Shown: piece after piece, positions 15,144 to 30,754 of the stretch
How positions within the stretch are numbered: position 1 is the first letter of the stretch
Layout: the number at the start of each line of letters is the position of its first letter
NCBI GenBank assembly: GCA_964447465.1
Contig: CAYUTR010000001.1
Span: 1-60,654, forward strand
DNA: 60,654 nt
DNA from: an uncultured Chryseobacterium sp.
GTDB lineage: Bacteria > Bacteroidota > Bacteroidia > Palsa-965
Direction: 5' to 3'
Position numbers and translations under genes: made by a program
Notes under the pieces: model-generated
The model's input: only the letters and a program-made list of their open reading frames with translations
What the model was told of the DNA's origin: nothing
The model's database searches: none

Positions 15144-15174
15144 TTTGCAGATTCAAACCTACCTGCTATATTTG
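15144..15174 (+). promoter_or_regulatory. Bacteroidota-type promoter of the (now split) host tRNA-Val gene
   Basis: TTTG (15144-15147), a 19-nt spacer, then a perfect -7 box TATATTTG (15167-15174), 13 nt upstream of the tRNA 5' end. Confidence 0.6.
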
Positions 15175-15187: not shown

Positions 15188-15227
15188 GGGAGCTTAGCTC
15201 AGCTGGTTTAGAGCATCTGCCTTACAA
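15188..15227 (+). pseudogene. 5' half of host tRNA-Val(UAC), truncated in the anticodon loop (attL)
   Basis: GGGAGCT-TA-GCTC-AGCTGGTTTA-GAGC-A-TCTGC-CTTACAA, then non-tRNA sequence (ACAGAGTGAGTG). The acceptor strand GGGAGCT is complementary to AGCTCCC at 55553-55559. Confidence 0.85.
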
Positions 15228-15292
15228 ACAGAGTGAGTGAACCATCAAGCCCTTGACAATCAAGGGATCGTTCTTTAGAAAATAATGATGTG

Positions 15293-15308
15293 CATACTTT
15301 GTACATAC
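15293..15308 (+). repeat. arm-type repeat near attL (CATACTTTGTACATAC)
   Basis: Identical 16-mer in the same orientation at 55389..55404. It lies 66 nt inside attL and 115 nt inside attR, so it is a candidate integrase arm-binding site. Confidence 0.6.
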
Positions 15309-15332
15309 TTATCTGCATATTTGCATTCAAAT

Positions 15333-15407
15333 GGGGGCTTAGCTCAGCTGGTTCAGAGCATTTGCCTTACAAGCAAAGGGTCATAGGTTCGAATCCTATA
15401 GCCCCCA
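15333..15407 (+). tRNA. tRNA-Val (anticodon TAC), complete, element-borne
   Basis: GGGGGCT-TA-GCTC-AGCTGGTTCA-GAGC-A-TTTGC-CTTACAA-GCAAA-GGGTC-ATAGG-TTCGAAT-CCTAT-AGCCCCC-A. The cloverleaf folds perfectly by hand. 75 nt, CCA not encoded. Confidence 0.9.
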
Positions 15408-15412
15408 CAAAA

Positions 15413-15438
15413 AGCCGGTCAATTTGATCGGCTTTTTT
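15413..15438 (+). terminator. terminator after the element tRNA-Val
   Basis: AGCCGGTCA-ATT-TGATCGGCT hairpin (one mismatch) followed by TTTTTT. Confidence 0.6.
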
Positions 15439-15619
15439 CTTGCCCTTCCTTCACTTCAAATATACGGCTAAAATGCCATATTGAGCCTGTAAATGGCCTT
15501 AGATCAGCCCATTTGCTTTACCCCCTGCCGTGACCTTATATTAGCCCTCCCAGTCGTCCCCTAGCGACACTTTGAGCTACCAGACTGGGCATACTAGAAC
15601 CCTAATAGAAAATCGTGAT

Positions 15620-15970
15620 ATGGTACATGGAGAGTGGCTCCAGCTTCAGGAATTCCTGTTTGGCTGGAAACAAGGACGAGCGAGAATAACCCTCACCTGT
15701 GGGGAGGCATTTGATTGTGAATTTAAACTGACCTCTGGAATACAACGTTCGGAACAAATTCTCCGCATCGTAGTTATGACCTCGGAAATAAGGATCATTG
15801 AGAATTCCCCACACGTCTGGCGTGCGAAGGAAGGAAGGTTTCCAGTTACTCACCAGGAATTGCCGATCAGTTCGATTTGGGTAATCGAACCGAATGATCC
15901 GCATGGTGAATTGAGATGGGAGCGGAAACGGTTGTTGTTTCCACTTCAGAAGTTCCAACAACTAAATTAG
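15620..15970 (+). CDS. hypothetical protein (strand ambiguous)
   Basis: ORFs 15572..15970(+) and 15602..15961(-) are codon-for-codon antisense to each other. The plus frame uses GGA/GAA/TCG/CCG codons like the confident genes here, while the minus frame is rich in the locally rare TCC and GGT. ATG at 15620; the track's start at 15572 is TTG. Confidence 0.3.
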   Translation: MVHGEWLQLQEFLFGWKQGRARITLTCGEAFDCEFKLTSGIQRSEQILRIVVMTSEIRIIENSPHVWRAKEGRFPVTHQELPISSIWVIEPNDPHGELRWERKRLLFPLQKFQQLN

Positions 15971-16079
15971 TTCCGTTCAAGAAAAAAAGGAATCGGTAAC
16001 GTGACAATGATTGCTTTCGCTGATTAATCGTCATATTTTAGATATTCTAATTCAACTTAAACAACGAAAAAAGAACTAC

Positions 16080-16406
16080 ATGGACGTAAAAGCCTTCATC
16101 AAAAAAATGGATGACTTCCAAAAGCAAGGGATTGCTAACTACAAATTTGCTAATACGGAAGATATTGTATTAATAATTTCAGGTCTAAGGGGATTACGTC
16201 AATATGATACAGCAATTGAATTATATAAGAAGTACGAAAATCTCTTACGCGATTCCGATATTTATCCAGTTGCACTGATAAACATTCTTGAAGTTTGTAA
16301 TGAACAGAAGAACATCCCGTTACTCATTGAATATGCGCGAGAATTAAAAGCAATATATCCCGACTTTCCCCTAGTACTTGAAATTGCAAAGTATCACTCC
16401 CTTTAA
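16080..16406 (+). CDS. small helical (TPR-like) hypothetical protein
   Basis: ATG 16080 (MDVKAFIKKMDD). Helical-repeat composition. Followed closely by the next plus-strand ORF. Confidence 0.45.
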   Translation: MDVKAFIKKMDDFQKQGIANYKFANTEDIVLIISGLRGLRQYDTAIELYKKYENLLRDSDIYPVALINILEVCNEQKNIPLLIEYARELKAIYPDFPLVLEIAKYHSL

Positions 16407-16425
16407 TTTATTAAAAACAAACCCA

Positions 16426-16938
16426 ATGGAACATTTAACACTAGCGACACCAGCACCGATTACGTTAGAGAGAATCTCATACTTAATCAACACGAAAGGA
16501 ATTAATCCCATTATTGCGAACGTTGATTTGGAGATGGTCAAAATGAAACTCCGGGATACTGACGAAGGGTTTGGCTGGACGGTTGAGCAAAGTGACGAAG
16601 CTGAGATTGAATACAAGCGATATTTACACCTGACAAAGAAATTACCCGGTGCTTCGCTTGTACCTCATTCAATCATGGATGATATGTGGCATCAGCACAT
16701 TCTTGACACCAGGGCATACCACAAGGATTCGGTTTTGATTTTCGGTGAATACCTCCATCACTATCCGTACTTCGGACTACGCAGCGAAGAAGATCAGCAA
16801 AATTTGATTTCCTCATTTGAAGAAACACAAAAACTGTACGAGGCTGAGTTCGGTGAGAAAATGGTTAAAGACGAATCAAGCCATTGCAAACGAGCTTGTC
16901 CCAGTTATTGCAAACGTGCCTGTAACACGAAACAGTAA
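16426..16938 (+). CDS. DUF1399/GRDP-like protein with Cys-rich tail (tentative)
   Basis: ATG 16426 (MEHLTLATP). MDDMWHQHILDTRAYHKD...HHYPYFG resembles the glycine-rich-domain-protein (DUF1399) core. The C-terminus has a duplicated CKRAC motif (HCKRACPSYCKRACNTKQ). Confidence 0.4.
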   Translation: MEHLTLATPAPITLERISYLINTKGINPIIANVDLEMVKMKLRDTDEGFGWTVEQSDEAEIEYKRYLHLTKKLPGASLVPHSIMDDMWHQHILDTRAYHKDSVLIFGEYLHHYPYFGLRSEEDQQNLISSFEETQKLYEAEFGEKMVKDESSHCKRACPSYCKRACNTKQ

Positions 16939-17514
16939 CTAAAATTGCATTCCCCATGATAGTCCCTTGCTTTTCAAAAATACCTCTACTTCGTCGGCAC
17001 TACCCTTGCCGCAATTCCGAAGTTTCAAAAAGTCTTGTCGAGTAAATGTGACAAGGTGGCCAATCATAAGAACACGCTCATGAGCGCAAATATTTTTTAC
17101 TCTAACGGACAAACTTGTTTCCTGAATTGAAAGAGGAAGCAGCTTACGTATTCTTACTGGTATCCGCTGTTTACGTTCGGCTTTCCGCTCAACAGCCACT
17201 ACTTTTTTTGTAACACTCGCCAACTCATTTCTAGCAGCACTCAATTCTTGAAGAAGATTATTGTGTGAATCTAGTTTTACCCGAATTTCATCCGCTCCAA
17301 TGGTAAATTGTCTGATTGCTCTGTCAAATATTTGCCCAAGACGGTGCGCAGTTAATTGATAGACGCTGTTTAGCTCAGTGAATTTTTTATTATTAACCAA
17401 AACCTCAGTTAGAATTTCATACTCCATCTTGGTCATTAAGTTCCTGCCAAGAAATACTATGTGTGGAAGTATCCTTTCAATGCCCTGCTCCCTCACCGTC
17501 TTTTTGCTGCTCAT
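16939..17514 (-). CDS. DNA-binding protein with RpoA alpha-CTD-like C-terminal domain
   Basis: C-terminal SLSVRVKNICAHERVLMIGHLVTFTRQDFLKLRNCGKGSADEVEVFLKSKGLS matches the helix-hairpin-helix pattern of the RNA polymerase alpha C-terminal domain (LSVRxxNCL...DL...L..IxNFGKKSxxEI). N-terminal HTH-like YEILTEVLVNNKKFTELNSVYQLTAHRLGQIFDRA. Confidence 0.5.
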   Translation of the reverse strand: MSSKKTVREQGIERILPHIVFLGRNLMTKMEYEILTEVLVNNKKFTELNSVYQLTAHRLGQIFDRAIRQFTIGADEIRVKLDSHNNLLQELSAARNELASVTKKVVAVERKAERKQRIPVRIRKLLPLSIQETSLSVRVKNICAHERVLMIGHLVTFTRQDFLKLRNCGKGSADEVEVFLKSKGLSWGMQF

Positions 17515-18221
17515 TACTGAATTGTTTTTCGTACCACCACTCCACCGGAAGCATCTTTCCCAATCATAATGTAGGTTGCAGGAGGCAATTCAATTCTCTC
17601 TGTCATCAACCACCCGTTGTAAGAACCTGCCCAAACTAATCTTCCTGTAAGATCGAATATTTCAACCGTCAAAAGGTTCGAGAACAATTCCGAATTTTCA
17701 GGAATGTCAAGAGGGTCTTGTATAAGTGTATCAACACAACTTTCACATCCAAAAGTATCAATCACGCAGAATTGATACGTCCCAGCGCCAACTCCAGAAA
17801 TATTGTATAGCCCGAAACCAATTGGAGGCATCCAATACGGGTAATATCCCGGAGTTCCTCCGTTAACGCTACCCCCTGCGCTACCATCATTACATCCAAC
17901 GCAGGATGGACTTGTTGCACTTGAAATCCAAACATTCAGAATCGGTGAACCATTTATAGTAACACTGTCAATCGTAACACAGCCTAAACTATCTGTCACT
18001 GTTACCGTGTAAGAACCGGGACAAAGATTTGAAATCTGTTGTGTTGTTTGCCCTCCTGGTTGCCAGAGATAAGTAAATGGTGCTTGTCCTGTTGGGTATG
18101 CAGTGGCAGTACCGATGCAAATCAAACCACAGTCCGCAGTACTATCGATGTACAGAGTGCATGTCTGTGATTTAAGCAGCACACTTGAATACATTACGAC
18201 GATCAGAAGAATTAAACGCAT
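17514..18221 (-). CDS. secreted SprB-repeat-like protein with T9SS C-terminal domain
   Basis: Signal MRLILLIVVMYSSVLLKSQ. C..G.ATAYPTGQAPFTYLWQPGGQTT..ISNLCPGSYTVTVTDSLGC is an SprB-type repeat. C-terminal beta-sandwich tail. Confidence 0.55.
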   Translation of the reverse strand: MRLILLIVVMYSSVLLKSQTCTLYIDSTADCGLICIGTATAYPTGQAPFTYLWQPGGQTTQQISNLCPGSYTVTVTDSLGCVTIDSVTINGSPILNVWISSATSPSCVGCNDGSAGGSVNGGTPGYYPYWMPPIGFGLYNISGVGAGTYQFCVIDTFGCESCVDTLIQDPLDIPENSELFSNLLTVEIFDLTGRLVWAGSYNGWLMTERIELPPATYIMIGKDASGGVVVRKTIQ

Positions 18222-18317
18222 CTGTTAAATAAGTTAGTCAATAAAAAATCTCTACTATCCATGCGCTACAGCGAATTTTCCAGTTGAACACGTCATTTCA
18301 AAGTGAAAGCATACATC

Positions 18318-19271
18318 TTAAAAGTCTACTTCAGTAACATAAGTCCCATTAACCTTCATCGTGTAAATTTTACTTTCGATGTGCAGTGAATTTGTTTCAT
18401 AATTCAGCATCCGGGTTTCGTAACAGTTAGCAATCAGTTCGAGGCCATCCGGCGACACATCCAGAGAAAAGAAATCTCGTGTATCGCAACTTGAAATAAT
18501 TTTTTTGGAAGAACCAGTGGATAAGTCATGGCTAAAAATTCCCCACCCATTGCACCAGTAAACAAATCTCGAATCCGGGGAAATTACAATATCCCGAATA
18601 TGTTCATTAGTCGGATCGCCTTCACCATGCCCGGGAATAGTTGAGGTACTACCTGATGAGAAAATATACATTTCCAGATCCGCTGTAAACGGAGAACTAA
18701 TGAGAAATTGATTATTGCGTGACCACGCAGTATGTTGCCAACCGTATCCGGAAATCGTATCTAAATGTTGCCCTTGCGGATTACAAATAATAGTTCGGTA
18801 CGTTGACCCAATCACTTGTCGGAATCCGTACTTGTCGCCATTTCCATTCCAAAAAGGGTCATAGCTTGATTGATCAAACGTGAGCTGAGTCAAGCTATCT
18901 CCATTCGATTTCACTTTCCAGATGTCATTCCCACTAAGATTGAAAGCTAACCAGCCAGACGTACTTGCACTAATCTCACTCCAAGATACTCCAGAGCAAA
19001 CAACCGATTCGACGCCCGACACCAAGTTTCGTTTGTGAATTTCGCTGAGGCCGCTGGATCTTATTGCGAACAAATAGAATATCTCATCTTGCACAAGTGG
19101 ATTATATGTAGGCGTACTCCTTACGGTATCTGGTTGCAAATAATTTAGAGCTGGTCCATTTGGATTATATTCAATTTCTTCACAGGGGTAGCTTCCAGGA
19201 ATAGGCGGGTCCTTCTTGCAATTTGCAAGTAGAACCACGCCTATAATCCCTATGTACCAGTATTTCAACAT
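18318..19271 (-). CDS. lipoprotein, TolB-like beta-propeller
   Basis: Lipobox VVLLANC. Repeated ISPDSRFVYW / VSPDGLELIA WD40-like propeller blades. Confidence 0.5.
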   Translation of the reverse strand: MLKYWYIGIIGVVLLANCKKDPPIPGSYPCEEIEYNPNGPALNYLQPDTVRSTPTYNPLVQDEIFYLFAIRSSGLSEIHKRNLVSGVESVVCSGVSWSEISASTSGWLAFNLSGNDIWKVKSNGDSLTQLTFDQSSYDPFWNGNGDKYGFRQVIGSTYRTIICNPQGQHLDTISGYGWQHTAWSRNNQFLISSPFTADLEMYIFSSGSTSTIPGHGEGDPTNEHIRDIVISPDSRFVYWCNGWGIFSHDLSTGSSKKIISSCDTRDFFSLDVSPDGLELIANCYETRMLNYETNSLHIESKIYTMKVNGTYVTEVDF

Positions 19272-19273
19272 CC

Positions 19274-22200
19274 TTACCGTCGAACAATAAATTTTTGTCT
19301 GCCAACAATATCAGCTCCGATTATTTCCATTATGTACACTCCTTCTGCAATGTCTGCTATGGAAATTACTTCAGTGTGCAAACCAGCAGACTGATTTGAA
19401 GGTACTGAACTTTTCACTATTTGCCCAGTCATCGAGTAAACGTTAATTACAACATCTTCATTGCCTTCAACATTATACGAAACATTCACTATGTCGCTTG
19501 TAGGATTTGGATAAACCTGCATTCCAGAATTTGGAATGTTTTCATCAACACCTACCGCACTTGCATCGTAGGTATACAGGGTAATTCCCACCTTCGTTTG
19601 GTAACTCGGACAAGGAATATCATCGTTAATGAGGATTTGTCCAGACAAATCTGAAATGATATGATACATATAAGTTTTTACTACTGCTTGAGTTGAAGTT
19701 GCAGATACAATTGTACATGCATCATCTCCAATTCCTAAGGTGGAAGTAAAAGGCCATCCGATTGTTCCGCTTGCACGAGTCCACGTAGCGAGAATTTGTT
19801 CATTCGGCCCGATAGAATAATTTAACGTGTGGGTTGAAGAATAAATATCGGCAATGTACCAACCAGATAACCCTTGATATGGTTGGTCTATGAATACATT
19901 GGTTTGAGACGCAATCAAAGTTGGAACCACCGAAAAAGAAGTAACATTTGTAAAAGTTCCGAAATGCCGCACTTTGTAGTAAGGATATTCAATTGCAGCA
20001 AGTGCCGCACCACCATCAATCAGTCCCCATCCCGTCTCATCATCATATCCCGCTGGGAATTTATCAATACAAGTCCTTTCGATGATCTGTTCAACGTCTT
20101 CGTGGCAGAGATTAGAATTCGTAGGGAAGGGTTGATCATAGTAACTCGCCATCAAAGCTGCCAGTCCTGCTACATGAGGTGTTGAAGCAGAAGTGCCATT
20201 AAACCCTCCGTAATTGCCAGTGGTTGACTCCGTAGTATAAACTAACAGATTAGTTGCAGGAGCGATGCAGTCGACACCTTCTTTGGTCATAGCTTGTCCT
20301 GCATCCACTGGATCATTTGGATTTCCATTGTTTGTGCTCTTCCATTCTCCATCGCTGCCCGACCCTCCACAGTTCAGAACAAGATCATCTCGGAAACATG
20401 CGGGATAAATTTTATCGTCAAGGTCCGTGCCTTGATTGTTTGGGTAATTGCCTCGTGCGGCGCACACAATCACACCATTTTTATTTGAAAAATGCACCGC
20501 GTCGTGTATTTCCATAGAAGAATTTGGACCTCCCCAGCTATTGCTCATAACCCATAAACCGTAACCACCTGCGCTCTGAGAAGTTGCTCCTGCAACAAGA
20601 GCATTCGCAATAGTATTCAACGGAGCAAAACTTGACGCATCGCTAATTTTCATGTCATAAAGCTCAACACCCGGATTAGCTGCACTGTTGTCACCTCCTG
20701 CGATACCTGCACCTTGAAACGCATTGTTACTTTTCGCTCCAATAATACCTGCGCATCTTGTGCCATGATTTGAATTGTCGTAAGGAACTCCGAGCGATGT
20801 TCCATTAAGGAAATTGTATCCGCTTAAAGGCACACCACCGAAGTCAGGATGATCTTGATCTATTCCGCTGTCATAGACACCGACTTTCACGAATGACCTT
20901 CCAGTGCTAAAATCCCAAGCTGGATAAATATTTATACCGCCATTTGGATAACCGGGAGACGCATAATAGCTATTCTGACTTGGTATGTAAGGGTCATTCG
21001 GCACGCTATATAGTTCATACAGAAAATTCAACTCCGCTTTCCAAACTTGCGCTTGGCAGCGATTAAGACTATCTGCTGCAACGTGATCTTGTATCCCTGC
21101 TGAGTATAAAACGAATGTTGCCCAAAAATTAGGAATGCGAACATCTTCACCTTGACGCGATATTGAAATAGTATCTGTCGATTTCAACCAAGGGTAAATT
21201 TTAACAAGAGTCCACTTGGTAACGTCAACACCGAGTTTTGCATTCATCTTTGAAATTCCTACTGCATCCACGAACGTAGAGACTTGACCGAACTGAATGG
21301 CGTCGTCATCGACATTGCTCATGATCAATACGCTTGGATCGAACTGAATTACGATTTGATTAGCCGCATGATACACTCCATTTGTATTATCAACTGTGAA
21401 GTTTGTTTGCCAGGTAGAATATTTTATTGTTGTGTATTCTTCAGTCGCTCCTTGTGTCGTCTTGCCACTAACTACAATGTCATTTCCTAACATATTAATT
21501 GCATACGCGCAATCATTTCCATTGCCTGAACCATTGAAATAATTCTCCCACATCTTTGTTCCTGTAGCATCATACATGATCGTCAAATAATCTTTTGCAG
21601 ATTGAGTAGTCATTTCTCCAGTGACCACCACACCTCCGTTCCCATCCGCAATCATTTTATGCACTGCCCCAAAGTCCACAGGATTTGTTGCGGATTGTCT
21701 TCTATCCCATAAAATTGATCCTGATGAGTTGTATTTTAATGTCAAAAAATCTTTTCCTCCGACTACTTTTTTCACATATCCTCCAATGAAAATGTTCCCG
21801 ATAGCGTCGATGTCAAGGCATGTGCCTTCATCGGTTAGTCCTTCGCCATCATAATCATCACTCCATACTAGACTTAATGAACTATTATATTTGATCAACT
21901 GCGTATTACTCTGACCGATCAAATGATTTGTACTTCCTACAACGTAAACATTTCCAAGATTGTCTTTCTCGATTCCACGCGCTTGATCAAGTGCATTTCC
22001 TGATACAGTAAACCGATGGACTGCAAGTTGAGTTCCTGAGTTGCTATACTTCACTGTGGTAATATCAGAGTTCGCCAAGCTGCTCGCGCTGGTTCCGGTA
22101 ACCAAAACATTATTGGTATTGTCAAGTAAAATACCAACTGCTAGATCGGGCATTCCTGCGAAGTTGTAACGCGAGGCCCATTGCTGCACGCCACTGCTGT

Positions 22201-22753
22201 TGTATTTAATTGTTGCATAATCCAGGTTCAACGGACTCCCTGTTCCTTTACTAGCACCGGTTACATATACGTTTCCAGAATTGTCAACGACAATCCCTGA
22301 TGTAACATCATAGCTGTTGCCGGGACCATTGTATGAAACTGACCAGAGTTGCGTTCCTCCTGGACTGTATTTGATCGTCATATAATTGTAACCTTGAGCC
22401 GCGTTAGCATAACTTGCACCTGTAACGTAAACGTTCCCGCTCAGATCAGTTGTAACTGCCGTGCCATAATCGCTGCCATTGGCAGTTCCGTTAAACTGTT
22501 GCTGCCACAGAACTGCTCCGTACTCATCATATTTTACCGTAAGAAAATTACTTCCTTGCCCAAACGCAAGTGTATTGCCGGTCAGGATAATATGATTGTA
22601 GTTATCAGCGACGGATGCCGTAATGTCAACTGTATCAGGAGAGGCATTGGTTGAAACCCATTCCCGGTTATATGCGCACTGAGAATTCGCTGAGAAGGCT
22701 GAACACAGCGCGACAGCAGCTAAGAGAGATTTTAGTTGAGTAAGGTTTGTCAT
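19274..22753 (-). CDS. S8 subtilisin-like serine protease with N-terminal SBBP beta-propeller repeats and T9SS C-terminal domain
   Basis: Repeated SGNVYVTGAS-type SBBP units. Catalytic triad contexts VGVYDSGIDQDHPDF (Asp), NHGTRCAGIIGA (His), GTSASTPHVAGLAALM (Ser). C-terminal VYPNPTSDIVNVSY...GVYIMEI. Confidence 0.85.
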   Translation of the reverse strand: MTNLTQLKSLLAAVALCSAFSANSQCAYNREWVSTNASPDTVDITASVADNYNHIILTGNTLAFGQGSNFLTVKYDEYGAVLWQQQFNGTANGSDYGTAVTTDLSGNVYVTGASYANAAQGYNYMTIKYSPGGTQLWSVSYNGPGNSYDVTSGIVVDNSGNVYVTGASKGTGSPLNLDYATIKYNSSGVQQWASRYNFAGMPDLAVGILLDNTNNVLVTGTSASSLANSDITTVKYSNSGTQLAVHRFTVSGNALDQARGIEKDNLGNVYVVGSTNHLIGQSNTQLIKYNSSLSLVWSDDYDGEGLTDEGTCLDIDAIGNIFIGGYVKKVVGGKDFLTLKYNSSGSILWDRRQSATNPVDFGAVHKMIADGNGGVVVTGEMTTQSAKDYLTIMYDATGTKMWENYFNGSGNGNDCAYAINMLGNDIVVSGKTTQGATEEYTTIKYSTWQTNFTVDNTNGVYHAANQIVIQFDPSVLIMSNVDDDAIQFGQVSTFVDAVGISKMNAKLGVDVTKWTLVKIYPWLKSTDTISISRQGEDVRIPNFWATFVLYSAGIQDHVAADSLNRCQAQVWKAELNFLYELYSVPNDPYIPSQNSYYASPGYPNGGINIYPAWDFSTGRSFVKVGVYDSGIDQDHPDFGGVPLSGYNFLNGTSLGVPYDNSNHGTRCAGIIGAKSNNAFQGAGIAGGDNSAANPGVELYDMKISDASSFAPLNTIANALVAGATSQSAGGYGLWVMSNSWGGPNSSMEIHDAVHFSNKNGVIVCAARGNYPNNQGTDLDDKIYPACFRDDLVLNCGGSGSDGEWKSTNNGNPNDPVDAGQAMTKEGVDCIAPATNLLVYTTESTTGNYGGFNGTSASTPHVAGLAALMASYYDQPFPTNSNLCHEDVEQIIERTCIDKFPAGYDDETGWGLIDGGAALAAIEYPYYKVRHFGTFTNVTSFSVVPTLIASQTNVFIDQPYQGLSGWYIADIYSSTHTLNYSIGPNEQILATWTRASGTIGWPFTSTLGIGDDACTIVSATSTQAVVKTYMYHIISDLSGQILINDDIPCPSYQTKVGITLYTYDASAVGVDENIPNSGMQVYPNPTSDIVNVSYNVEGNEDVVINVYSMTGQIVKSSVPSNQSAGLHTEVISIADIAEGVYIMEIIGADIVGRQKFIVRR

Positions 22754-22829
22754 TTTCGTAGAGGTTGTAGATTAATTGTTTTACTATTCTATTGTGCGCA
22801 ACTATCAGCGTGCGCAAATGGGAGTAAGA

Positions 22830-23810
22830 TTAGTGTGCTAACACCAATTTTCCGGACTTCAAAGTAACACCCGATGAGTGAATGCGGTATAGATAAGCGC
22901 CATCAGCCAGCGTCAGAAAAATAGTTTGCGAATGATTTCCGACTGGAACTTCGTTGTAATACACACGCTGACCGAGCGCGTTGAACACCTCGAATTGCGT
23001 ACCGTCAGGGAAGTTTCCGCTAAGAGTAATTTCCCCGCTGGTAAGACTTGGCGTAAGTGAAAATTCAGGATAAGTAGGGGGTTCCGAAGTATCAGACGTG
23101 CAATCAATGCAATGAACGTCGAAGTTATCAAAGTAATAATATGCAAACGTCGAAGGGTTCAGAGAATCAATCAAATAGTATTGTGCTTGGGCAGTGTCAA
23201 AATTTCCCACAGTCAGATACAATTCACCGCCATTGCCAATGATGGTATCTTGAATAGCCACCCAGTTCAAAGTGTCAAGGATAAAATTTCCAGATGGGTT
23301 GCTCATAGCTGGTTGAACGTTTTCCAAATAATAATCTAACCATGAAACCGTATCATACTCAGCAAGACTTGAATCGCTTAGTTCAATTTGGATTAAGTCA
23401 ATTCCCGACCTAGAAAAATTGGAAAGTGAAACATAAAAACTAACAGCATATCTTCTCCCTGTCCGCAACGAATCAGTTAACCGGATTGAAAAAAACTCTA
23501 GTCCATCTGTAAGTGCGCAACCGACGTATGCCTGGCCTTCATAAGGAACCTGATAGCCTGCATTATTTGCATATCCCCCGCCCCCCCAATTCGCAGGCCA
23601 TTGATCATTGCAAGGTTGATTTAACTGGGTTGTTGGGTAAAAGTAGTCTGGACTGCCAATAGTCGGGGTAAACCATTCACGCGCTTTGACAATAGTGCTG
23701 TCATAAGAACAATGTATGGTGTCCTCAAAACCCGGATTTGGAACAAGATTTACCTGCCCGTTAATAAAAACAGGTAAAAGTGAAGCGAAAAGGATCAACT
23801 GGGCTTTCAT
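22830..23810 (-). CDS. T9SS-secreted protein, unknown function
   Basis: Signal MKAQLILFASLLPVFINGQ. N-terminal NLVPNPGFEDTIHC...SPDYF is common in Bacteroidota secreted proteins. C-terminal sorting-domain-like tail (FEVFNALGQRVY...GAYLYRI). Confidence 0.6.
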   Translation of the reverse strand: MKAQLILFASLLPVFINGQVNLVPNPGFEDTIHCSYDSTIVKAREWFTPTIGSPDYFYPTTQLNQPCNDQWPANWGGGGYANNAGYQVPYEGQAYVGCALTDGLEFFSIRLTDSLRTGRRYAVSFYVSLSNFSRSGIDLIQIELSDSSLAEYDTVSWLDYYLENVQPAMSNPSGNFILDTLNWVAIQDTIIGNGGELYLTVGNFDTAQAQYYLIDSLNPSTFAYYYFDNFDVHCIDCTSDTSEPPTYPEFSLTPSLTSGEITLSGNFPDGTQFEVFNALGQRVYYNEVPVGNHSQTIFLTLADGAYLYRIHSSGVTLKSGKLVLAH

Positions 23811-23879
23811 TTTTAGAAAGCAAGTTCCGGGAAATACACCCGAAACTTGCTTTGTTATACGCTTATAACCAAAGTTAAG

Positions 23880-26800
23880 TTATTTAACGATGACAAGGCG
23901 TTGCCCTTCCGTCACCTCGCCGTCCACCACTACGTGCAGCATATACACTCCACCCGGTAATACCGCCGTGCTAATGGTATATACTTCTTGGTGCGGAACA
24001 AGTTGCTGACTAAGGACAAGTTTCCCTGACAAGTCGAAAATTTCAACCTGCGCGTTTTGTCCTTCGTCTACACCGTACTCTAACTTTACAGATTCACTGG
24101 CAGGATTTGGGTAAACACTCAGATCGCTTTGTGTATCAGGAGTGCTCGTTTCGTGACCAAGACGCTGGGAACTTGCGCCGTAATAATCAATCTCAAGGTC
24201 AAGCATAACCCTTGCACTATAAACAGCAGTACCACCGTTAGACGGGTCTTGTAATGCGATGTTTAATAGCGTAGCCGAATCAGACGCTGAAAACTCCATG
24301 ATACCCTGCATCCACGTCGCTGCATATATACCGTACACCACTTTGGCGTTGTGCTCAATGATATTTGAACACGCAAGCGCGCTACACGCAGAAGCAACAA
24401 ACTGATAACCGCCGGTGTCCGCTGCAAGTTCTACCTGACGCAATGTTCCAACGTTAGTCGGGTTATAGCTGTTATAGAAATTTTGGTACAGCGTATCATC
24501 CGGGAAACCGAGATTTAACCACGAAGGTGTTTGCGTCAGTTTACGGTGAGCGTAACGACGAAGCTGATAACGGTTTTCGGCAGAGGTATTTGTATCAGAA
24601 GCAGAACGTAATGTTGCACCTACTTGTTGATCTCGCTCAAATTGTGCTTGTGAAAAGAAAAAGAAGTTGCAAGCATTGTATGAGACAGACTGCATTGTAA
24701 TTCCCGTTGCACTGGCACTGGTTGGTGGTGTCACGGTGTGGTAGCGCCAAAAAATAGCGGGCACAACCACTCCATTTATATCTTCACTCGCATTTTGCGT
24801 CGCAATCCAAGTATTTCCGGTTGCTGACGGTATGAAGTTTGGATCGACAATTTGATCGCCAATATCGCAAGTATCAAAAAACACCCCGTTATAGCATCGG
24901 CTCATTGTGTTGCACGCGAGTGTACTGGATGATGAAATATCCATTCCATAAAGTCCGCTACCTAAGCGCAAGAAAACGTTATCCGTTGCATAGGTCACTG
25001 GACTGTTTTCAATACTGATTCCACGCAGGCGTTGAACCATTGTTGAAATTGGATTAATCACTCCGGTTTTTGTAATACGATTGGTATCACATCTTACCGT
25101 CGCACAACCTTCTAAGCGAATTCCGTAATGCGCAGTCGAATATGCAGCGTTCGGTTTTGCAAAATTCACTACGTTACCTCCAATGAACACTTTGTTTTTC
25201 CCGACAAGGTTTTGCACCCAGATCCCGGTACGAACCCTATTGATAGAGTTGTTGCTCTGAATGCTCACCGTCATATCCGCCGGAGACACACAAGAAACGC
25301 GAATGCCAGTGCCGGTTTGTCGTGCATAAGCAGATGTAGTGTCCGCTGTCTGCAAGATGCGGTTGAGATTAATGTTAAGTGTAGCATCATAACATTCCAG
25401 CACGAGGATCGCGGTATTAAACGCGTAGTTCACCGCTTGGTTAGTGATGCGATTGTCGTTAATATTGATGCTTCGACCGACTGCACGTTGAACACGCACA
25501 CCGTAAAAACGTATGTCTGAGATGTTGTTGTTCAAAACTGTTACGTGCAATACTTCCCTCGCGTCAATCGCCGTTCGCATATTCACAAAGACACACCGGC
25601 GAGGGAGCGCACCTCCCACAGTGATTTGTGGTTGGTAAAGCGCATTCTTTTGTCCGATTGCAACAACACCAGTTCCTGCATCTGGAACATTAAATAACTG
25701 CACAAGGTTAGGTGTGAAATTCGCGAAACGACAGTTGAAAACGTTGGTTCGTGAGTTCTTAGAACGAACACCTACAAGAATGTCGGTGAAATTATTCTGC
25801 ATCACCGCCGCCGTTGGATCGCCAATAGTAATATCTGCGTTGTCTTCGATTTCAATGGCGCAGACCGTGCGGGTATGACCGAACGGTAAGGACGGAAATA
25901 GCGCGGGAAGGAACGGTTGGTTCATCGTGAAGTTGGTGCGACGAACTGTTCCAGGATGTGTGCCGGAGTAAGCCTTTACCACGATGTCCTTGTAATTATT
26001 TCGCAGGGTGGAGTTGTCGACATTGTACCTGCCGCCACTGATCGACACCACAGTGTTACGCGCTTGTTGAATATTTGAGTTGTTAATGATGTTCACTGTT
26101 GACGTTACACCGTTCAGATAGATACCATCCCACATATATCCGCACGCGGTTTGAGTTCGGCTATTGTTAAGCGTAAACGTTTCATTAGCCAATACTTGTA
26201 TTTGCGCATTCGCCCCCATATTTATGTTGAAGCAATTCAGGAACGTGAACGTGGTGTCAATAATGAATACTCCATTTATTGTAATGTTCGCCAACCCCGC
26301 CGTGAAGTTTGTCCCGATGATGTACGGGAAGAACGCAGGATCGTTCAACACAGACGACGCCGTTCGGTTATCAATACGTAGTGCGGTAGTATCGTCACAA
26401 CATGGCGGAATGTTGAGTGTGTCTTTCGTTACACAATCCGTAATCGTATCAAATGCAGTGAGAATAATATATCCACCAGCATTTGACCAGGAGACATGGA
26501 ATTGGCAGTTAGAAATTACCGTTCCTGTTCCTCCACTAGCAACCCATGTGTAGACTACATTCGTTTCACAATCCGAGGTATAAGAAAGAACACCGCTACC
26601 ACAGTTGTTTGTAGCTGCACCTGTTATAGCTGAAGATGGTCCACCGGGCTGAATAACCGAAAGCTGACAGGAAATCGTGTCGCCAAAAGTTGTTACAATA
26701 AAATGAGTAACTAAATACGTGTGACCATCTAGTGCGAATATGTGCGTCACATTTGGTCCGACCGCTGTAAACCCGTCGCCGAAATCCCAAAGGTGACTAG

Positions 26801-27974
26801 CTATTCCTTGCGTACAGGTTGATGTGTCCGAATAAAAACGAACACGACACGTAGCCTCATAAGTAAAACATGGATTTGGATTGTTAATGAAGAATGTGAC
26901 GGCAACACTATCAGTGCCACACTGATTTGTTACGACGAGGGAAGCAGTATGCAAGCCGGGAGCCAAGGCAGGATTACCAATATTACCATCAGGAAAGCAA
27001 ACAACTGAATCACACCCGAACAATGGAGGAAACGCACAGTTCTGAACTTGTACCCCGTCAACATAGAACGCAAGACCATGCACTCCGTTACCTACTGAAG
27101 TCAAGCACACAGTATCTCCTACACAATAACCCGTTTGATTCAGAACGAGATTAGCAACAGGAGGAGCTTGCACCAAGATTTGAAACTTCACGCCTGTTAG
27201 AAGCAGCGGTGGTCCATTCGGATCATCCCAAAAGTAAGCAAGTCCAATGTTGTAAACGCCTGGTGTATTGTAGGCACATGCCCACGACATAAACGTAGTG
27301 TCAATATAAGTTCCCGCACATGATCCTCCTTGAAATTGCCATACACCAAAAAAAGTATCATTCATTGGATAGTTCTGATTTGTGATTGGATGCACGAGGT
27401 ATATGGAATCGCCGGGGCAAATTGTATCAACCAGTTCGCAATCGTGCGCCATATAATCTGTACCTAAAATATCAGCATCATAACAGCAAAAAGTAATGTT
27501 CCCGTTCTGATCGGTCATGCAACCACCCCAATACGCCAGTACAGGTGGTGTTGTCGTCAGACAAAGATTGAACTTCGCATTTGGGTTGGAACCTGCGCCC
27601 GGTGCAGGACGTTCAAGTTTGACGAAATAGGTCAGGCCCACCGAAAGGCCATGCAACGGCATCCAAATAATGTGTTCGTTGGAAGGTGAAAGCGACCCGT
27701 TCGCGAAAGCAGTAAGCGAAGCGCACGCACCCGAATAAACGGTCATCGTTTGAAAATCAGAATAACCTAATTCGGTTACGGTGTACGACATGATATGCGT
27801 TGTAGACGTTGCAGTAAACGAATACCACGCTTCATTATCGGTTGTTGTTACACCGTTAAAGCAATTGTCCGATGTCATCGGAATTGCATCGGCGCAGGTT
27901 GCACCTGTTTGTGCTGTTGCAAAGCTGGCAAGCATAATGCCGAGCAATGCGAATAGTCGGGAGAGAGATTTCAT
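23880..27974 (-). CDS. large T9SS-secreted protein with PKD-like and parallel beta-helix repeats
   Basis: Signal MKSLSRLFALLGIMLASFATAQ. HLWDFGDGFTAVGPNVTHIF is PKD-like. Many N-rich beta-helix turns (NNNISDIRFYGVRV, INDNRITN). C-terminal VYPNPASESVKLEY...GVYMLHVV. Confidence 0.75.
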   Translation of the reverse strand: MKSLSRLFALLGIMLASFATAQTGATCADAIPMTSDNCFNGVTTTDNEAWYSFTATSTTHIMSYTVTELGYSDFQTMTVYSGACASLTAFANGSLSPSNEHIIWMPLHGLSVGLTYFVKLERPAPGAGSNPNAKFNLCLTTTPPVLAYWGGCMTDQNGNITFCCYDADILGTDYMAHDCELVDTICPGDSIYLVHPITNQNYPMNDTFFGVWQFQGGSCAGTYIDTTFMSWACAYNTPGVYNIGLAYFWDDPNGPPLLLTGVKFQILVQAPPVANLVLNQTGYCVGDTVCLTSVGNGVHGLAFYVDGVQVQNCAFPPLFGCDSVVCFPDGNIGNPALAPGLHTASLVVTNQCGTDSVAVTFFINNPNPCFTYEATCRVRFYSDTSTCTQGIASHLWDFGDGFTAVGPNVTHIFALDGHTYLVTHFIVTTFGDTISCQLSVIQPGGPSSAITGAATNNCGSGVLSYTSDCETNVVYTWVASGGTGTVISNCQFHVSWSNAGGYIILTAFDTITDCVTKDTLNIPPCCDDTTALRIDNRTASSVLNDPAFFPYIIGTNFTAGLANITINGVFIIDTTFTFLNCFNINMGANAQIQVLANETFTLNNSRTQTACGYMWDGIYLNGVTSTVNIINNSNIQQARNTVVSISGGRYNVDNSTLRNNYKDIVVKAYSGTHPGTVRRTNFTMNQPFLPALFPSLPFGHTRTVCAIEIEDNADITIGDPTAAVMQNNFTDILVGVRSKNSRTNVFNCRFANFTPNLVQLFNVPDAGTGVVAIGQKNALYQPQITVGGALPRRCVFVNMRTAIDAREVLHVTVLNNNISDIRFYGVRVQRAVGRSININDNRITNQAVNYAFNTAILVLECYDATLNINLNRILQTADTTSAYARQTGTGIRVSCVSPADMTVSIQSNNSINRVRTGIWVQNLVGKNKVFIGGNVVNFAKPNAAYSTAHYGIRLEGCATVRCDTNRITKTGVINPISTMVQRLRGISIENSPVTYATDNVFLRLGSGLYGMDISSSSTLACNTMSRCYNGVFFDTCDIGDQIVDPNFIPSATGNTWIATQNASEDINGVVVPAIFWRYHTVTPPTSASATGITMQSVSYNACNFFFFSQAQFERDQQVGATLRSASDTNTSAENRYQLRRYAHRKLTQTPSWLNLGFPDDTLYQNFYNSYNPTNVGTLRQVELAADTGGYQFVASACSALACSNIIEHNAKVVYGIYAATWMQGIMEFSASDSATLLNIALQDPSNGGTAVYSARVMLDLEIDYYGASSQRLGHETSTPDTQSDLSVYPNPASESVKLEYGVDEGQNAQVEIFDLSGKLVLSQQLVPHQEVYTISTAVLPGGVYMLHVVVDGEVTEGQRLVIVK

Positions 27975-28299
27975 GGTTTGCAGCGGTGTTAGTTAATGTT
28001 CGTGTTATTGGTTTGTGTGTATATCATTTGTTTTCGTCATTCAGTTTTCGATTCCACGAGGAGCCTATCATAAATGGAAAAACAACCCCATGCGGATCGT
28101 AATGGTCTTCCCTGCATTCTTCGCGTTCGCTTATTTCCTTTTGAGTTTTCAGTTTGGTGTGACTACTTGCCTTGTTCATGCCGCGTTGTGTTTTTTTCTT
28201 TTTTTTCATAATAATTGAAGGGTGGGGAGATAGCAATATGCCATCTCCCCATGAACGACGGGGGGCTTTCGTTCATCCTGCCTTATGCGTGTGCTTGTA

Positions 28300-29883
28300 T
28301 TAACTTCTAAATAGTTTTTTGGATTTACTGTTGTGAATCATTCGTTCCTCTTGATCTGGCTCCCGTTCAATTTGAAAGGAAGGTATTTCTTGAGCAAAGT
28401 TTTGGTGAGAGACTTTTGCAAAAAACCATTGATGAAAGATTATCACCTCAGAAGATTTTATTTCCCACTGCAATTCACCAGCTTTTTCGCGGAGCATTTC
28501 AAATGCTGCTTTTTGCTCGTGATAAATAGCTTTAAAATTGTAACCGTTATAGCTCAGACTATGGAGAACGCTGTGAATAAGTTTGGCGCGATGATTTGTC
28601 GTTCCATTTCCATTAGCAAAATATTTTCTTAATGCTTCAATCTTTGCCGTTGCATCGTCAAAGTCGTTCAACTCAATCGCGGTCATAATCTGCAAAATCT
28701 TTATTCCCAAGTTCCAGCCTTCCTTATCGGCTTCAATCGGATTAATTAGGGAAAGGTGCTTTGCCGAATATTGAAAATCCTTCATCATAAAGAACGTTGC
28801 AGCTAGAAAGTAACCGCGTTTCCCTGCTCTGAAATTGCCTGATTGTTCTTCAGAAGGAATGTATTCACAAAGTATATCATGTCCGATTCCATATTTACCA
28901 CCAAAGAACTTAGCATAAAACATTAGTTCTACACATATCTCATAGTTATGACTTCCTTTCTCTGACAAATTCAGAGCCGCAAATGCTTTTTGATAAGCGC
29001 GTTCAAATTGTCCTAAGTAAAGATCATTGTCGGCTAAATTCATCATTACCCCAATGAGTTTGTCGTGTGTCTTGATCGAAGGGTAATTTTGAATCAGCTT
29101 GTAATTGTTCAATAATTCTATTCGGGCCTTTTTGTAATCGCGGGAGCTTTGATAATTCTGCGCCTCAAGTTGTAAGTAATAGTAACCCACAGTTGCCGAG
29201 TCGGTGGTTTTAAAATCGTCTCGCATTGTATCAAGCATATCACGAAGCTCTTTTTGATTGATCTTACCTTCGGAATGAAAGTCACTGGGCGCAGTAATTT
29301 TTGTGAAGTATATCTCTGCTCTTACAACGGCATTTTTCGCAGTATCCGACTGTAAGTATTTTTTTACTAGGAGTGGCAAATTCTTGTCACCTTCGACTAA
29401 AACCCTGGATCGAATTAATATTCGCAAAGCAATAAGTTGCTCCTCGTAGAGTTCGTACTTCCCACATTGCTCTACTACACTCTCAAACATTTTTTTTGCG
29501 AGTTTGATTTTCCCTCTGCGGTGAAGAATTTGCGCTTGCGTGAGCTTCTTTCTGACTTCTATATTTACTTTGACTCTTTCGGGATACATACCCTCGCGAT
29601 CAATGTTTACATCAATGATTAAGGCGTCAAGCACTTTAATCCTGGTTCTGTTCGCTAACTTTTTTAAAGCCGGTTTATTGGGCTTCTTGTAAATAGCCAG
29701 TTCAATCTCATCGACTGATGCGGTACTATTTTCTAATGCTGTCAGAAACCCGAAAAGTTGAAGTCCTTTATTCGTCTCACTCTTCCACTCCAGGACAAAC
29801 GTCTTTAGATAGGTTCTAACAGAAACCTTTTCCTCTGAAGTCAGAATGCTGATAACGTCTTGCAGTGTTTTAATCGCTTCCAT
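28300..29883 (-). CDS. all-helical TPR-like repeat protein (possible sensor/regulator)
   Basis: 527 aa with no signal peptide or TM helix. Repeated ~34-aa helical hairpins (YYYLQLEAQNYQSSRDYKKARIEL, FERAYQKAFAALNL, YFLAATFFMMKDFQYSAKHL). Divergent from the 30801 operon. Confidence 0.45.
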   Translation of the reverse strand: MEAIKTLQDVISILTSEEKVSVRTYLKTFVLEWKSETNKGLQLFGFLTALENSTASVDEIELAIYKKPNKPALKKLANRTRIKVLDALIIDVNIDREGMYPERVKVNIEVRKKLTQAQILHRRGKIKLAKKMFESVVEQCGKYELYEEQLIALRILIRSRVLVEGDKNLPLLVKKYLQSDTAKNAVVRAEIYFTKITAPSDFHSEGKINQKELRDMLDTMRDDFKTTDSATVGYYYLQLEAQNYQSSRDYKKARIELLNNYKLIQNYPSIKTHDKLIGVMMNLADNDLYLGQFERAYQKAFAALNLSEKGSHNYEICVELMFYAKFFGGKYGIGHDILCEYIPSEEQSGNFRAGKRGYFLAATFFMMKDFQYSAKHLSLINPIEADKEGWNLGIKILQIMTAIELNDFDDATAKIEALRKYFANGNGTTNHRAKLIHSVLHSLSYNGYNFKAIYHEQKAAFEMLREKAGELQWEIKSSEVIIFHQWFFAKVSHQNFAQEIPSFQIEREPDQEERMIHNSKSKKLFRS

Positions 29884-30331: not shown

Positions 30332-30351
30332 TAGCCGTTTGTAAACGGATA
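30332..30351. promoter_or_regulatory. 20-bp palindromic operator-like site O1
   Basis: TAGCCGTTT-GT-AAACGGATA, located 13 nt downstream of a perfect -7 box TACTTTTG (30311-30318). Confidence 0.5.
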
Positions 30352-30724: not shown

Positions 30725-30754
30725 TATCCGTTTACAAACGTTTACAAACGGATA
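30725..30754. promoter_or_regulatory. operator-like site O2 (same palindrome with a 10-bp internal duplication)
   Basis: TATCCGTTTACAAACG+TTTACAAACGGATA. Removing one TTTACAAACG gives TATCCGTTT-AC-AAACGGATA. Lies 17 nt upstream of the -7-like TACTTTTA (30772-30779) and 46 nt upstream of ATG 30801. Confidence 0.5.

What the first reader, a model, noticed from the sequence alone, without database searches (positions are those of the whole stretch)
15228..15438. The element carries a complete replacement tRNA-Val(UAC) with a host-like promoter, just inside attL
A fully foldable tRNA-Val with the same anticodon lies 105 nt inside the junction, with its own terminator. Its upstream sequence (ATCTGCATATTTGCATTCAAAT-GGGGGC) resembles the host tRNA promoter (ACCTGCTATATTTGCACCCCAATTCAA-GGGAGC). 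Because integration destroys the host copy, the element appears to compensate for the damage it causes. The intact host promoter at 15144-15174 would also read through the truncated 5' half into this gene. The two tRNAs differ in the acceptor, anticodon-stem and T-arm, so this is not a simple duplication of the target.
Basis: partly seen in the sequence, partly recalled or inferred. Interest (0 to 1): 0.6.

Follow-up and report, generated by a model that had tools for sequence, protein, structure and literature searches.

The report
Island carries spare tRNA-Val it breaks
A 40-kb mobile island has inserted into the anticodon loop of a bacterial tRNA-Val(UAC) gene, splitting it into two dead halves, and brings along its own complete tRNA-Val(UAC) gene 105 bases inside the junction; this is the trick published in 2024 for mycobacteriophages ("tRNA-dependent lysogeny"), here seen in Bacteroidota and in an element that does not look like a phage.

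Summary
An intact tRNA-Val(UAC) lies at 15333-15408 (Rfam 75.7 bits). It has a Bacteroidota-type -7 box and a strong terminator.

It sits 105 nt inside attL of a ~40.3-kb island (15228-55518). The island split a host tRNA-Val(UAC) exactly in the 7-nt anticodon loop (CTTACAA). Joining the two flanks rebuilds a perfect 76-nt tRNA-Val. Neither junction alone makes a tRNA.

Host and cargo tRNAs differ at 8 positions: three compensatory stem pairs and two loop bases.

All five integrase lineages found (61-100% identical) sit next to a tRNA-Val 3' half at the same loop. Metagenome contigs from three studies other than the source show the same attL layout: 5' half, 105 nt, then the cargo tRNA. The cargo tRNA is 76/76 identical in all of them, while the sequence just downstream is only ~85-88% identical.

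The mechanism is not new. It matches tRNA-dependent lysogeny (Guerrero-Bustamante & Hatfull 2024, PMC10865867). New here are the phylum, the isotype, a compact int-attP-tRNA module, and an island family with no phage or conjugation hallmark.

Not tested: expression, and the host's tRNA-Val(UAC) copy number. Read-through from the host promoter is doubtful, because a conserved hairpin lies in between.

The parts
15144..15174 (+). Intact host promoter of the split tRNA-Val gene. TTTG at 15144-15147, 19-nt spacer, TATATTTG at 15167-15174 (Bacteroidota TTTG / TAnnTTTG type).
   Evidence: The consensus itself is from my own knowledge of Bacteroides promoters.
15188..15227 (+). Host tRNA-Val(UAC) 5' half: acceptor 5' strand, D arm, anticodon-stem 5' strand TCTGC, and anticodon loop CTTACAA. 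The loop (15221-15227) is the attL core.
   Evidence: 25.1 bits, below the gathering score.
15228..15232 (+). Element-side core arm ACAGA. With TCTGT at 55514-55518 it makes attP a perfect mimic of an anticodon stem-loop (TCTGT-CTTACAA-ACAGA).
   Evidence: attP reconstruction.
15250..15266 (+). Perfect palindrome CCCTTGACAATCAAGGG followed by ATCGTTCTTT. Terminator-like hairpin or a protein-binding site in the P' arm. Conserved in relatives.
   Evidence: the only change, A15263G, keeps a U-G pair.
15290..15308 (+). P' arm-type repeat pair GTGCATAC-TTT-GTACATAC. Overlaps the -33 region of the cargo promoter.
   Evidence: the pattern occurs only here and at 55386-55404 (expected 0.08).
15316..15323 (+). 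Cargo promoter -7-like box CATATTTG (7 of 8 matches to TAnnTTTG), 9 nt before the tRNA 5' end. Embedded in a 23-nt stretch homologous to the host tRNA-Val promoter.
15333..15408 (+). Complete cargo tRNA-Val(UAC). No encoded CCA, like the host gene.
   Evidence: 76/76 identical in relatives.
15409..15437 (+). Intrinsic terminator of the cargo tRNA: 13-bp stem followed by a U run.
15228..55518 (.). Island body, about 40.3 kb. Variable cargo at 15440-34600: T9SS-secreted proteins and a PRTase/NADAR block. Conserved core at 34647-55327: RecA-like ATPase, C5-methylase + Sno-type helicase, GH108 lysozyme, membrane proteins of unknown function, HTH protein and integrase.
52625..52894 (-). 89-aa HTH protein, candidate excisionase or directionality factor. 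Homologous positions in L004 and L006 are called HTH_17.
53969..55327 (-). Tyrosine integrase, 452 aa: Arm-DNA-bind_5, SAM-like and catalytic domains. R321, K323, R402, H425 and Y434 are invariant.
55386..55404 (+). P arm-type repeat pair GTACATAC-TTT-GTACATAC, between the integrase gene and the core.
   Evidence: a repeat pair is present in all five lineages; its sequence varies between them.
55514..55525 (+). Element-side core arm TCTGT plus the attR core CTTACAA.
55526..55561 (+). Host tRNA-Val(UAC) 3' half: GCAGA, variable loop, T arm, acceptor 3' strand and discriminator A.
   Evidence: 25.7 bits.
55568..55593 (+). Host terminator of the split tRNA gene.
   Evidence: -18.5 kcal/mol, z = -6.3.

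Best explanation
This is tRNA-dependent integration by a Bacteroidota genomic island.

Proposed mechanism:
1. The island's tyrosine integrase has an N-terminal arm-binding domain. It recombines attP with the anticodon stem-loop of a chromosomal tRNA-Val(UAC) gene.
2. attP is TCTGT-CTTACAA-ACAGA, flanked on both arms by a pair of GTRCATAC repeats. attB is TCTGC or TTTGC, then CTTACAA, then GCAGA or its equivalent.
3. Strand exchange occurs inside the 7-bp loop.
4. attP shares only the loop and most of the stem with the target, so the host gene is not rebuilt. The promoter and 5' half stay at attL. The 3' half and terminator stay at attR.
5. The island supplies the lost decoding function from its own complete tRNA-Val(UAC) gene. 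That gene has its own promoter and terminator and sits 105 bp from the core. In the circular form, int, attP and the tRNA therefore make one ~2-kb cassette.

What is shown: the split target, the 7-bp crossover window, the intact cargo gene, and its strict conservation across lineages and hosts.

What is inferred:
- That the cargo tRNA is expressed and charged.
- That it is needed (or at least selected) to offset the lost host copy.
- That carrying a whole tRNA frees the island from matching each host's acceptor and T-arm sequence, which widens its host range.
- That the cargo gene was captured, promoter and all, from a chromosomal tRNA-Val gene.
For: Split target and empty-site reconstruction.

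Crossover window. Mismatches just outside the loop bound the exchange to CTTACAA. At attL the sequence reads C|CTTACAA|A; at attR it reads T|CTTACAA|G.

Integrase and attP. The integrase domains and catalytic residues are present. Arm repeats occur only in the two attP arms, with 0.08 expected by chance.

Cargo tRNA quality. It scores 75.7 bits. All six stem differences from the host copy are compensatory. It has a terminator and a promoter homologous to the host one (p about 0.002).

Comparative evidence:
- Five integrase lineages (100, 88, 87, 69 and 61% identical) all abut a tRNA-Val 3' half at the same loop. Host flanks and host tRNA variants differ between them.
- attL contigs in runs X3, X8, X9 and X10 show the 5' half, 105 nt and the cargo tRNA. 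X12 shows the spacer and tRNA.
- The tRNA is 76/76 identical and the spacer has 0-3 substitutions. By contrast, the next 150-240 nt are about 85-88% identical, and the sequence diverges entirely after 15583 in X3.
- Host 5' halves differ from the cargo at 0, 1 or 3 positions in different runs, which indicates independent insertions.

Experimental precedent for the logic: PMC10865867.
Against: - No expression data. The source is a low-coverage permafrost metagenome and no RNA runs were found.
- The host genome is not available, so other intact tRNA-Val(UAC) copies may exist. The cargo would then be only a dosage top-up or dispensable.
- attL could not be reached for the two most distant lineages (L004 at 69%, L005 at 61%), so conservation of the cargo tRNA is shown only for the 83-100% group.
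- The cargo -33 TTTG is 14 nt from the -7 box instead of 19-21 nt, and the -7 box is a 7-of-8 match.
- The near-identity of spacer plus tRNA across mosaic lineages could partly reflect a recent exchange of this module rather than selection.
Confidence: 0.8

Rival explanations
1. The cargo tRNA is a passenger, captured with flanking host DNA by an aberrant excision. The hosts have several tRNA-Val(UAC) genes, so losing one costs little and the cargo copy is not needed.
For: The cargo promoter and terminator look like a chromosomal tRNA-Val unit. An identical tRNA occurs in an unrelated context in run X13. The host copy number is unknown.
Against: The tRNA is 76/76 identical in at least three element lineages whose adjacent DNA is only 85-88% identical. 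All stem changes relative to the host are compensatory. The spacer length is fixed at 105 nt. A neutral passenger should decay or be lost in this otherwise very variable attL-proximal region.
Confidence: 0.1
2. The cargo tRNA mainly serves the element's own needs. It could be a spare tRNA-Val that resists or outnumbers host or rival anticodon nucleases, or one that matches the island's codon usage. The same isotype as the target would then be coincidental or secondary.
For: The island family carries defence cargo: Dnd, DISARM-like and PRTase blocks. PMC10865867 raises this possibility for phage tRNAs.
Against: The cargo has exactly the anticodon of the gene it destroys and sits inside attP, next to the core. 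No tRNA-Val-specific nuclease is known to me. The cargo is identical, at least over the D arm and anticodon stem, to some hosts' own target. It therefore offers no obvious escape variant.
Confidence: 0.05
3. The main role of the cargo tRNA is to regenerate an attachment site. Its anticodon stem-loop is a usable attB, so further elements of the family can integrate in tandem even though the chromosomal site is destroyed.
For: In X8 and X10 the disrupted host half has the same D loop and TTTGC anticodon stem as the cargo. The integrase therefore accepts that stem.
Against: No tandem array was seen in any locus. This role is compatible with compensation rather than a replacement for it, and it would not by itself require an intact, promoter-driven and terminated gene.
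Confidence: 0.05

Closest known systems
tRNA-dependent lysogeny of actinobacteriophages: Fionnbharth (K4), cluster L, Gaia (X), Gordonia CQ2/DL (Guerrero-Bustamante & Hatfull, mBio 2024, PMC10865867)
   Same: A tyrosine integrase with arm-type sites on both attP arms. attB lies in a host tRNA gene. The common core is very short (8-17 bp there; 7 bp perfect or 18 bp with 2 mismatches here), so no tRNA is rebuilt. [quoted passage not shown]
   Different: Phylum (Bacteroidota, not Actinobacteria). Isotype (Val-UAC, not Lys-UUU, Ile2-CAU or Leu-CAA). An unrelated integrase family (Arm-DNA-bind_5 type). The tRNA sits 105 bp from the core inside the P' arm; in Fionnbharth it lies elsewhere, overlapping gene 37. 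The element has no recognisable phage genes. The requirement for the tRNA is experimentally shown there and untested here.
Lj965 prophage of Lactobacillus johnsonii (cited in PMC10865867 as an earlier bioinformatic case)
   Same: Integration fails to rebuild the tRNA, and the prophage carries a cognate tRNA.
   Different: A Firmicutes prophage. I know it only through the citation and did not examine it.
Canonical tRNA-gene-targeting islands and prophages (Williams 2002 classes; Islander database, PMC4383910)
   Same: The integrase gene lies next to one att site. The crossover is in the anticodon loop, with the symmetric anticodon stem as flanking core sites. A displaced tRNA fragment marks the far end.
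   Different: Canonical elements carry the 3' (rarely the 5') part of the tRNA in attP and regenerate the gene. Here both junctions are dead halves, and a separate whole gene is carried.
Bacteroides NBU1/NBU2 and CTnDOT-type integrases (from my own knowledge, not tested here)
   Same: Bacteroidota tyrosine integrases with an N-terminal arm-binding domain. NBU elements use tRNA 3' ends as targets.
   Different: Those elements keep the tRNA functional and carry mobilisation or conjugation genes. None were detected here. The nearest integrase relatives outside the five-lineage clade are only about 35% identical.

Membership tests
tRNA-dependent lysogeny (PMC10865867) | Tyrosine integrase with arm-type DNA binding, and attP flanked by arm-type sites | tested here: met
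   Pfam Phage_integrase, Arm-DNA-bind_5 and SAM_5. Invariant R321, K323, R402, H425 and Y434. Repeat pairs occur only in the two attP arms.
tRNA-dependent lysogeny (PMC10865867) | attB overlaps a host tRNA gene | tested here: met
   The joined flanks give a perfect tRNA-Val(tac).
tRNA-dependent lysogeny (PMC10865867) | Common core too short to rebuild a functional tRNA at attL or attR | tested here: met
   7-bp perfect core. ARAGORN and Rfam gathering threshold find no tRNA at either junction. The halves score 25.1 and 25.7 bits, below 29.
tRNA-dependent lysogeny (PMC10865867) | [quoted passage not shown] | tested here: met
   tRNA-Val(tac) at 15333-15408. Conserved in relatives.
tRNA-dependent lysogeny (PMC10865867) | The element's tRNA is required for survival of integrants (the host tRNA is essential or single-copy) | not testable with these tools
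No second copy or empty site was seen in the source runs, but the metagenome coverage is about 4x.
tRNA-dependent lysogeny (PMC10865867) | The element is a temperate phage (lysogeny) | tested here: inconclusive
   No capsid, portal or terminase hit in Pfam, NCBIfam or PHROGs for the core ORFs. Only GH108 or endolysin-like hits and a weak tape-measure hit appeared. The element is absent from IMG/VR and the core protein tested is absent from INPHARED phages. No conjugation genes either. A single-sequence AF2 model was unusable (pLDDT 35).
Canonical tDNA-integrating genomic island (Islander definition, PMC4383910) | [quoted passage not shown] | tested here: not met
Canonical tDNA-integrating genomic island (Islander definition, PMC4383910) | Tyrosine integrase gene adjacent to an island end, with a displaced tRNA fragment at the other boundary | tested here: met
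   The integrase gene starts 191 nt from the attR core. Both fragments are present.
Anticodon-loop sublocation class of tRNA-targeting integrases (Williams 2002, from my own knowledge) | Crossover within the 7-nt anticodon loop, flanked by the symmetric anticodon stem | tested here: met
   Mismatches on both sides bound the exchange to CTTACAA. attP carries its own perfect 5-bp inverted repeat.
HP1-type attP with an extended identity block that includes a whole downstream tRNA gene (from my own knowledge) | Continuous attP/attB identity from the crossover through the 3' half and the next host tRNA | tested here: not met
   The 105-nt spacer has no counterpart in the reconstructed empty site, where the host terminator follows the tRNA directly.

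The most novel reading that the evidence does not exclude
The island belongs to an uncharacterised class of Bacteroidota mobile element, neither phage nor conjugative by any known marker. It travels with a self-sufficient int-attP-tRNA cassette.

The cassette would have two consequences:
- Because it replaces rather than repairs the target, the element is independent of each host's acceptor and T-arm sequence.
- Because the cargo tRNA has an attB-competent anticodon stem-loop, each insertion renews the landing site.

Over time, one horizontally spread tRNA-Val allele would take over decoding in many lineages.
Probability: 0.2. Interest if true: 0.65.

Novelty: new member of a known kind. Interest (0 to 1): 0.42.

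Why it matters
The 2024 paper could only speculate that tRNA-dependent integration exists outside Actinobacteria phages. This locus shows that it does.

- It occurs in environmental Bacteroidota from permafrost, soil and groundwater.
- It occurs on a defence- and secretion-cargo island with no recognisable phage genes.
- It explains why some islands seem to lack the usual long tRNA direct repeat, so repeat-based island finders would miss them.
- It gives one concrete reason why mobile elements carry a single tRNA gene.
- It offers a compact int-attP-tRNA cassette (about 2 kb) that could be tried as an integration vector for Flavobacteriia.

It does not change the concept.

Tried and rejected
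1. The cargo's TTTGC/GCAAA anticodon stem shields it from the island's own integrase. Rejected: in X8 and X10 the disrupted host half has the same stem.

2. The spacer is a decayed tRNA 3' half (HP1-like origin). By eye there is no similarity beyond CAGAG. Not pursued.

3. Tandem host tRNA genes with the insertion elsewhere. Rejected: the block 15229-15583 travels with the element into hosts with different flanks.

4. Searches that found nothing useful:
- The metagenome-contig scan for the attL junction gave only two ordinary tRNA-Val variants with a C-A stem mismatch.
- Four viral-contig scans found nothing.
- The attL-proximal 191-aa protein has no useful homologues.
- Walking from the conserved ATPase towards attL in seven related contigs never reached attL, because the cargo exceeds 10 kb.

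6. Attempts to type the element failed:
- PDB sequence searches gave nothing for the three proteins queried: the 609-aa core protein, the RecA-like ATPase and the integrase.
- tblastn against plasmids and phages gave only weak Persicobacter hits.
- A single-sequence AF2 model of the 249-aa protein was useless.

7. No empty site, circular form or identical paralogue was seen in the source runs.

Full report
**1. What is in the sequence**

ARAGORN finds one tRNA gene in the whole window: tRNA-Val(tac) at 15333-15408 on the + strand. Rfam's tRNA model scores it 75.7 bits against a gathering score of 29.

Upstream, 15188-15227 is the 5' part of a different tRNA-Val. It has the acceptor 5' strand GGGAGCT, the D arm, the anticodon-stem strand TCTGC and the loop CTTACAA. 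After the loop the sequence stops being tRNA.

Forty kilobases away, a second CTTACAA at 55519-55525 is followed by GCAGA, a variable loop, a T arm, the acceptor 3' strand AGCTCCC and the discriminator A. That is the missing 3' half.

- Joining the two flanks in a script gives a perfect 76-nt cloverleaf tRNA-Val(tac).
- ARAGORN finds no tRNA in attL alone.
- The two junctions reach only 25.1 and 25.7 bits, below Rfam's threshold.

**2. The attachment sites**

attL reads TCTGC|CTTACAA|ACAGA. attR reads TCTGT|CTTACAA|GCAGA. The base just left of the loop is host-type at attL and element-type at attR. The base just right of the loop shows the reverse pattern. Strand exchange is therefore confined to the 7-bp anticodon loop.

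The reconstructed attP, TCTGT-CTTACAA-ACAGA, is itself a perfect stem-loop mimic.

A pair of 8-nt direct repeats (GTRCATAC-NNN-GTRCATAC) occurs exactly twice in 60 kb, once in each attP arm, at 15290-15308 and 55386-55404. Only 0.08 occurrences are expected by chance. These are most likely arm-type sites.

The adjacent 452-aa integrase (53969-55327, minus strand) has Arm-DNA-bind_5, SAM-like and catalytic domains. It has invariant R321, K323, R402, H425 and Y434.

**3. The cargo gene is a complete transcription unit**

- A 13-bp stem plus U-run terminator follows the tRNA: -16.4 kcal/mol, z = -5.0.
- Nine nucleotides upstream lies CATATTTG, a 7-of-8 match to the Bacteroidota -7 box TAnnTTTG (the consensus is from my own knowledge).
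- The 23 nt around that box match the host gene's promoter at 19 positions. Only 4 of 2000 shuffles score as well.
- Host tRNA-Val promoters seen in other metagenomes carry the same CTGC(C)TATATTTGCA motif.
- Host and cargo tRNAs differ at eight positions. Six form three compensatory pairs (4:71, 30:44, 52:66). Two are loop bases.

This is a functional-looking homologue from another lineage, not a copy of the target. In run X13 a 151-nt contig holds the identical tRNA with unrelated flanks on both sides. That may be a native donor-type gene.

**4. Read-through from the host promoter**

The host promoter is intact: TTTG, 19 nt, then TATATTTG, at 15144-15174. However, a perfect 7-bp palindrome with a short T-rich tail sits at 15250-15266, between the orphan 5' half and the cargo gene. 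The scan flags it as terminator-like.

The palindrome is conserved in relatives. Its only change, A15263G, keeps a U-G pair.

Whether it stops, attenuates or does nothing to the host-promoter transcript cannot be decided here.

**5. Related elements**

The integrase has only four close relatives among 5.8 billion proteins: 88%, 87%, 69% and 61% identical. The next relatives are about 35% identical.

In every one of these lineages, about 190 nt upstream of the integrase gene, there is a repeat pair, a core arm (TCTGT in four lineages, CCTTG in L004), CTTACAA, and a tRNA-Val 3' half.

- Host flanks differ. L001 shares no flank protein with the window. L005 has the same Mur-ligase neighbour.
- The host 3' halves differ in the acceptor and T-loop bases.
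- The elements are mosaics of one another.

These are therefore separate insertions by a mobile family.

**6. attL in the relatives**

The attL side could not be reached through proteins, because the attL-proximal genes are variable cargo. Logan contigs laid on the window show it instead. These contigs span a 5' tRNA-Val half, exactly 105 nt, and then the cargo tRNA:

| Run | Contig length |
|---|---|
| X3 (holds the L001-type element) | 645 nt |
| X8 | 591 nt |
| X9 | 1582 nt |
| X10 | 312 nt |

X12 covers the spacer and tRNA only.

- The tRNA is 76/76 identical in all of them.
- The spacer has 0-3 substitutions.
- The next 150-240 nt have about 12-15% differences.
- In X3 the sequence then diverges completely.

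**7. A hypothesis of mine that failed**

I suspected that the cargo's TTTGC anticodon stem protects it from the integrase. In X8 and X10 the disrupted host half is identical to the cargo over its D loop and TTTGC stem. The integrase therefore accepts that stem, and the cargo tRNA is itself a plausible attB. The landing site may be renewed at each insertion.

**8. What the island is**

The island spans 15228-55518.

Conserved core, shared with at least seven related contigs:
- integrase
- a 267-aa protein
- an 89-aa HTH protein, a likely directionality factor
- a run of small membrane proteins of unknown function
- a GH108 lysozyme
- a Sno-type helicase, here fused to a C5 methylase
- a 521-aa RecA-like ATPase

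Beyond the ATPase the cargo changes from element to element:

| Element | Cargo |
|---|---|
| L009 | Dnd phosphorothioation genes |
| L012 | DISARM-like genes |
| Window, L013, L015, L016 | T9SS-secreted proteases |
| Window | PRTase_III-A / NADAR block |

No capsid, portal, terminase, relaxase or type IV secretion component was detected. The element is absent from IMG/VR, and the 609-aa core protein finds nothing in the INPHARED phages. I cannot say whether it is viral, conjugative or a hitch-hiker.

**9. Comparison with what is known**

The strategy was described experimentally in 2024 as tRNA-dependent lysogeny (PMC10865867).
- Mycobacteriophage Fionnbharth and others integrate into a tRNA gene through an 8-17-bp core and fail to rebuild it.
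- They carry a cognate tRNA, without which integration is lethal.
- The authors predicted the phenomenon would be found elsewhere, and cited prophage Lj965.
- A Sinorhizobium study reports it for Mesorhizobium-phage-like prophages.

Four of the six defining features are met here. The requirement for the tRNA is untestable with these tools. Phage identity is inconclusive.

The locus fails the defining feature of canonical tRNA islands, which is regeneration of the target (PMC4383910).

I therefore file it as a new member of a known kind. What is new is the phylum, the isotype, the integrase family, the tight int-attP-tRNA cassette with arm sites overlapping the tRNA promoter, and the element type.

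**10. Limits**

- There are no RNA data.
- The source coverage is about 4x.
- The host genome is unavailable, so the tRNA-Val(UAC) copy number is unknown.
- No empty site or circular form was seen.
- attL is unseen for the 69% and 61% lineages.
- The identity of the cargo module across mosaic lineages may partly reflect recombination rather than selection alone.

Noticed in passing
window 34647-55327; L006, L009-L017: An uncharacterised Bacteroidota island family. The conserved core holds an integrase, an HTH protein, many small membrane proteins, a GH108 lysozyme, a Sno-type helicase (with or without a C5 methylase) and a RecA-like AAA_24/25 ATPase. No phage or conjugation hallmark was found, so how it moves between cells is unknown.
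   Followed up: partly
L009 12224-20565; L012 12780-21605; window 17514-34594; L013, L015, L016: The slot between the ATPase and attL holds different cargo in each relative. L009 has Dnd phosphorothioation genes (DndB/DndE, PAPS reductase). L012 has DISARM-like genes (DrmE, MZB, NERD helicase). The window has T9SS-sorted proteases and PKD proteins, plus a PRTase_III-A / NADAR block.
   Followed up: partly
window 15250-15266: A perfect 7-3-7 palindrome, CCCTTGACAATCAAGGG, lies in the P' arm 22 nt from the core and is conserved in relatives. It could be a terminator for the orphan host promoter or a binding site for a dimeric accessory protein.
   Followed up: partly
window 15290-15308 and 55386-55404; L004 about 150-170; L005 about 1620-1640: The arm-type repeat pairs differ between integrase lineages: GTACATAC-TTT-GTACATAC, GTGCATAG-TTT-GTGCATAG and GTGCATAC-AC-TGTGCATAC. 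This suggests co-evolution of the integrase N-domain and its arm sites. The P' pair overlaps the -33 region of the cargo tRNA promoter.
   Followed up: partly
run X13, 151-nt contig laid on window 15329-15408: The exact cargo tRNA sequence occurs with unrelated flanks on both sides in a freshwater-sediment metagenome. It may be a native chromosomal gene of the lineage from which the cargo was captured.
   Followed up: no
window 49272-51101 (minus strand): By eye, the 609-aa core protein has a transglutaminase-like Cys/His/Asp motif near the N terminus, a repetitive coiled-coil middle (VKEKIQNVKEKVQTVKENVK) and a C-terminal membrane anchor. No tool confirmed this.
   Followed up: no
window 16939-17514 (minus strand): A 191-aa protein with an RNA polymerase alpha C-terminal domain (Pfam 2.8e-08) is encoded 1.5 kb inside attL. 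It has practically no homologues in 5.8 billion proteins.
   Followed up: partly
L002 7466-7665: An unrelated metagenome contig has two tandem tRNA-Val(tac) genes 44 nt apart. The second has a C-A mismatch closing the anticodon stem and an extra base in the T loop, so it may be decaying. It matched my attL pattern by chance.
   Followed up: no
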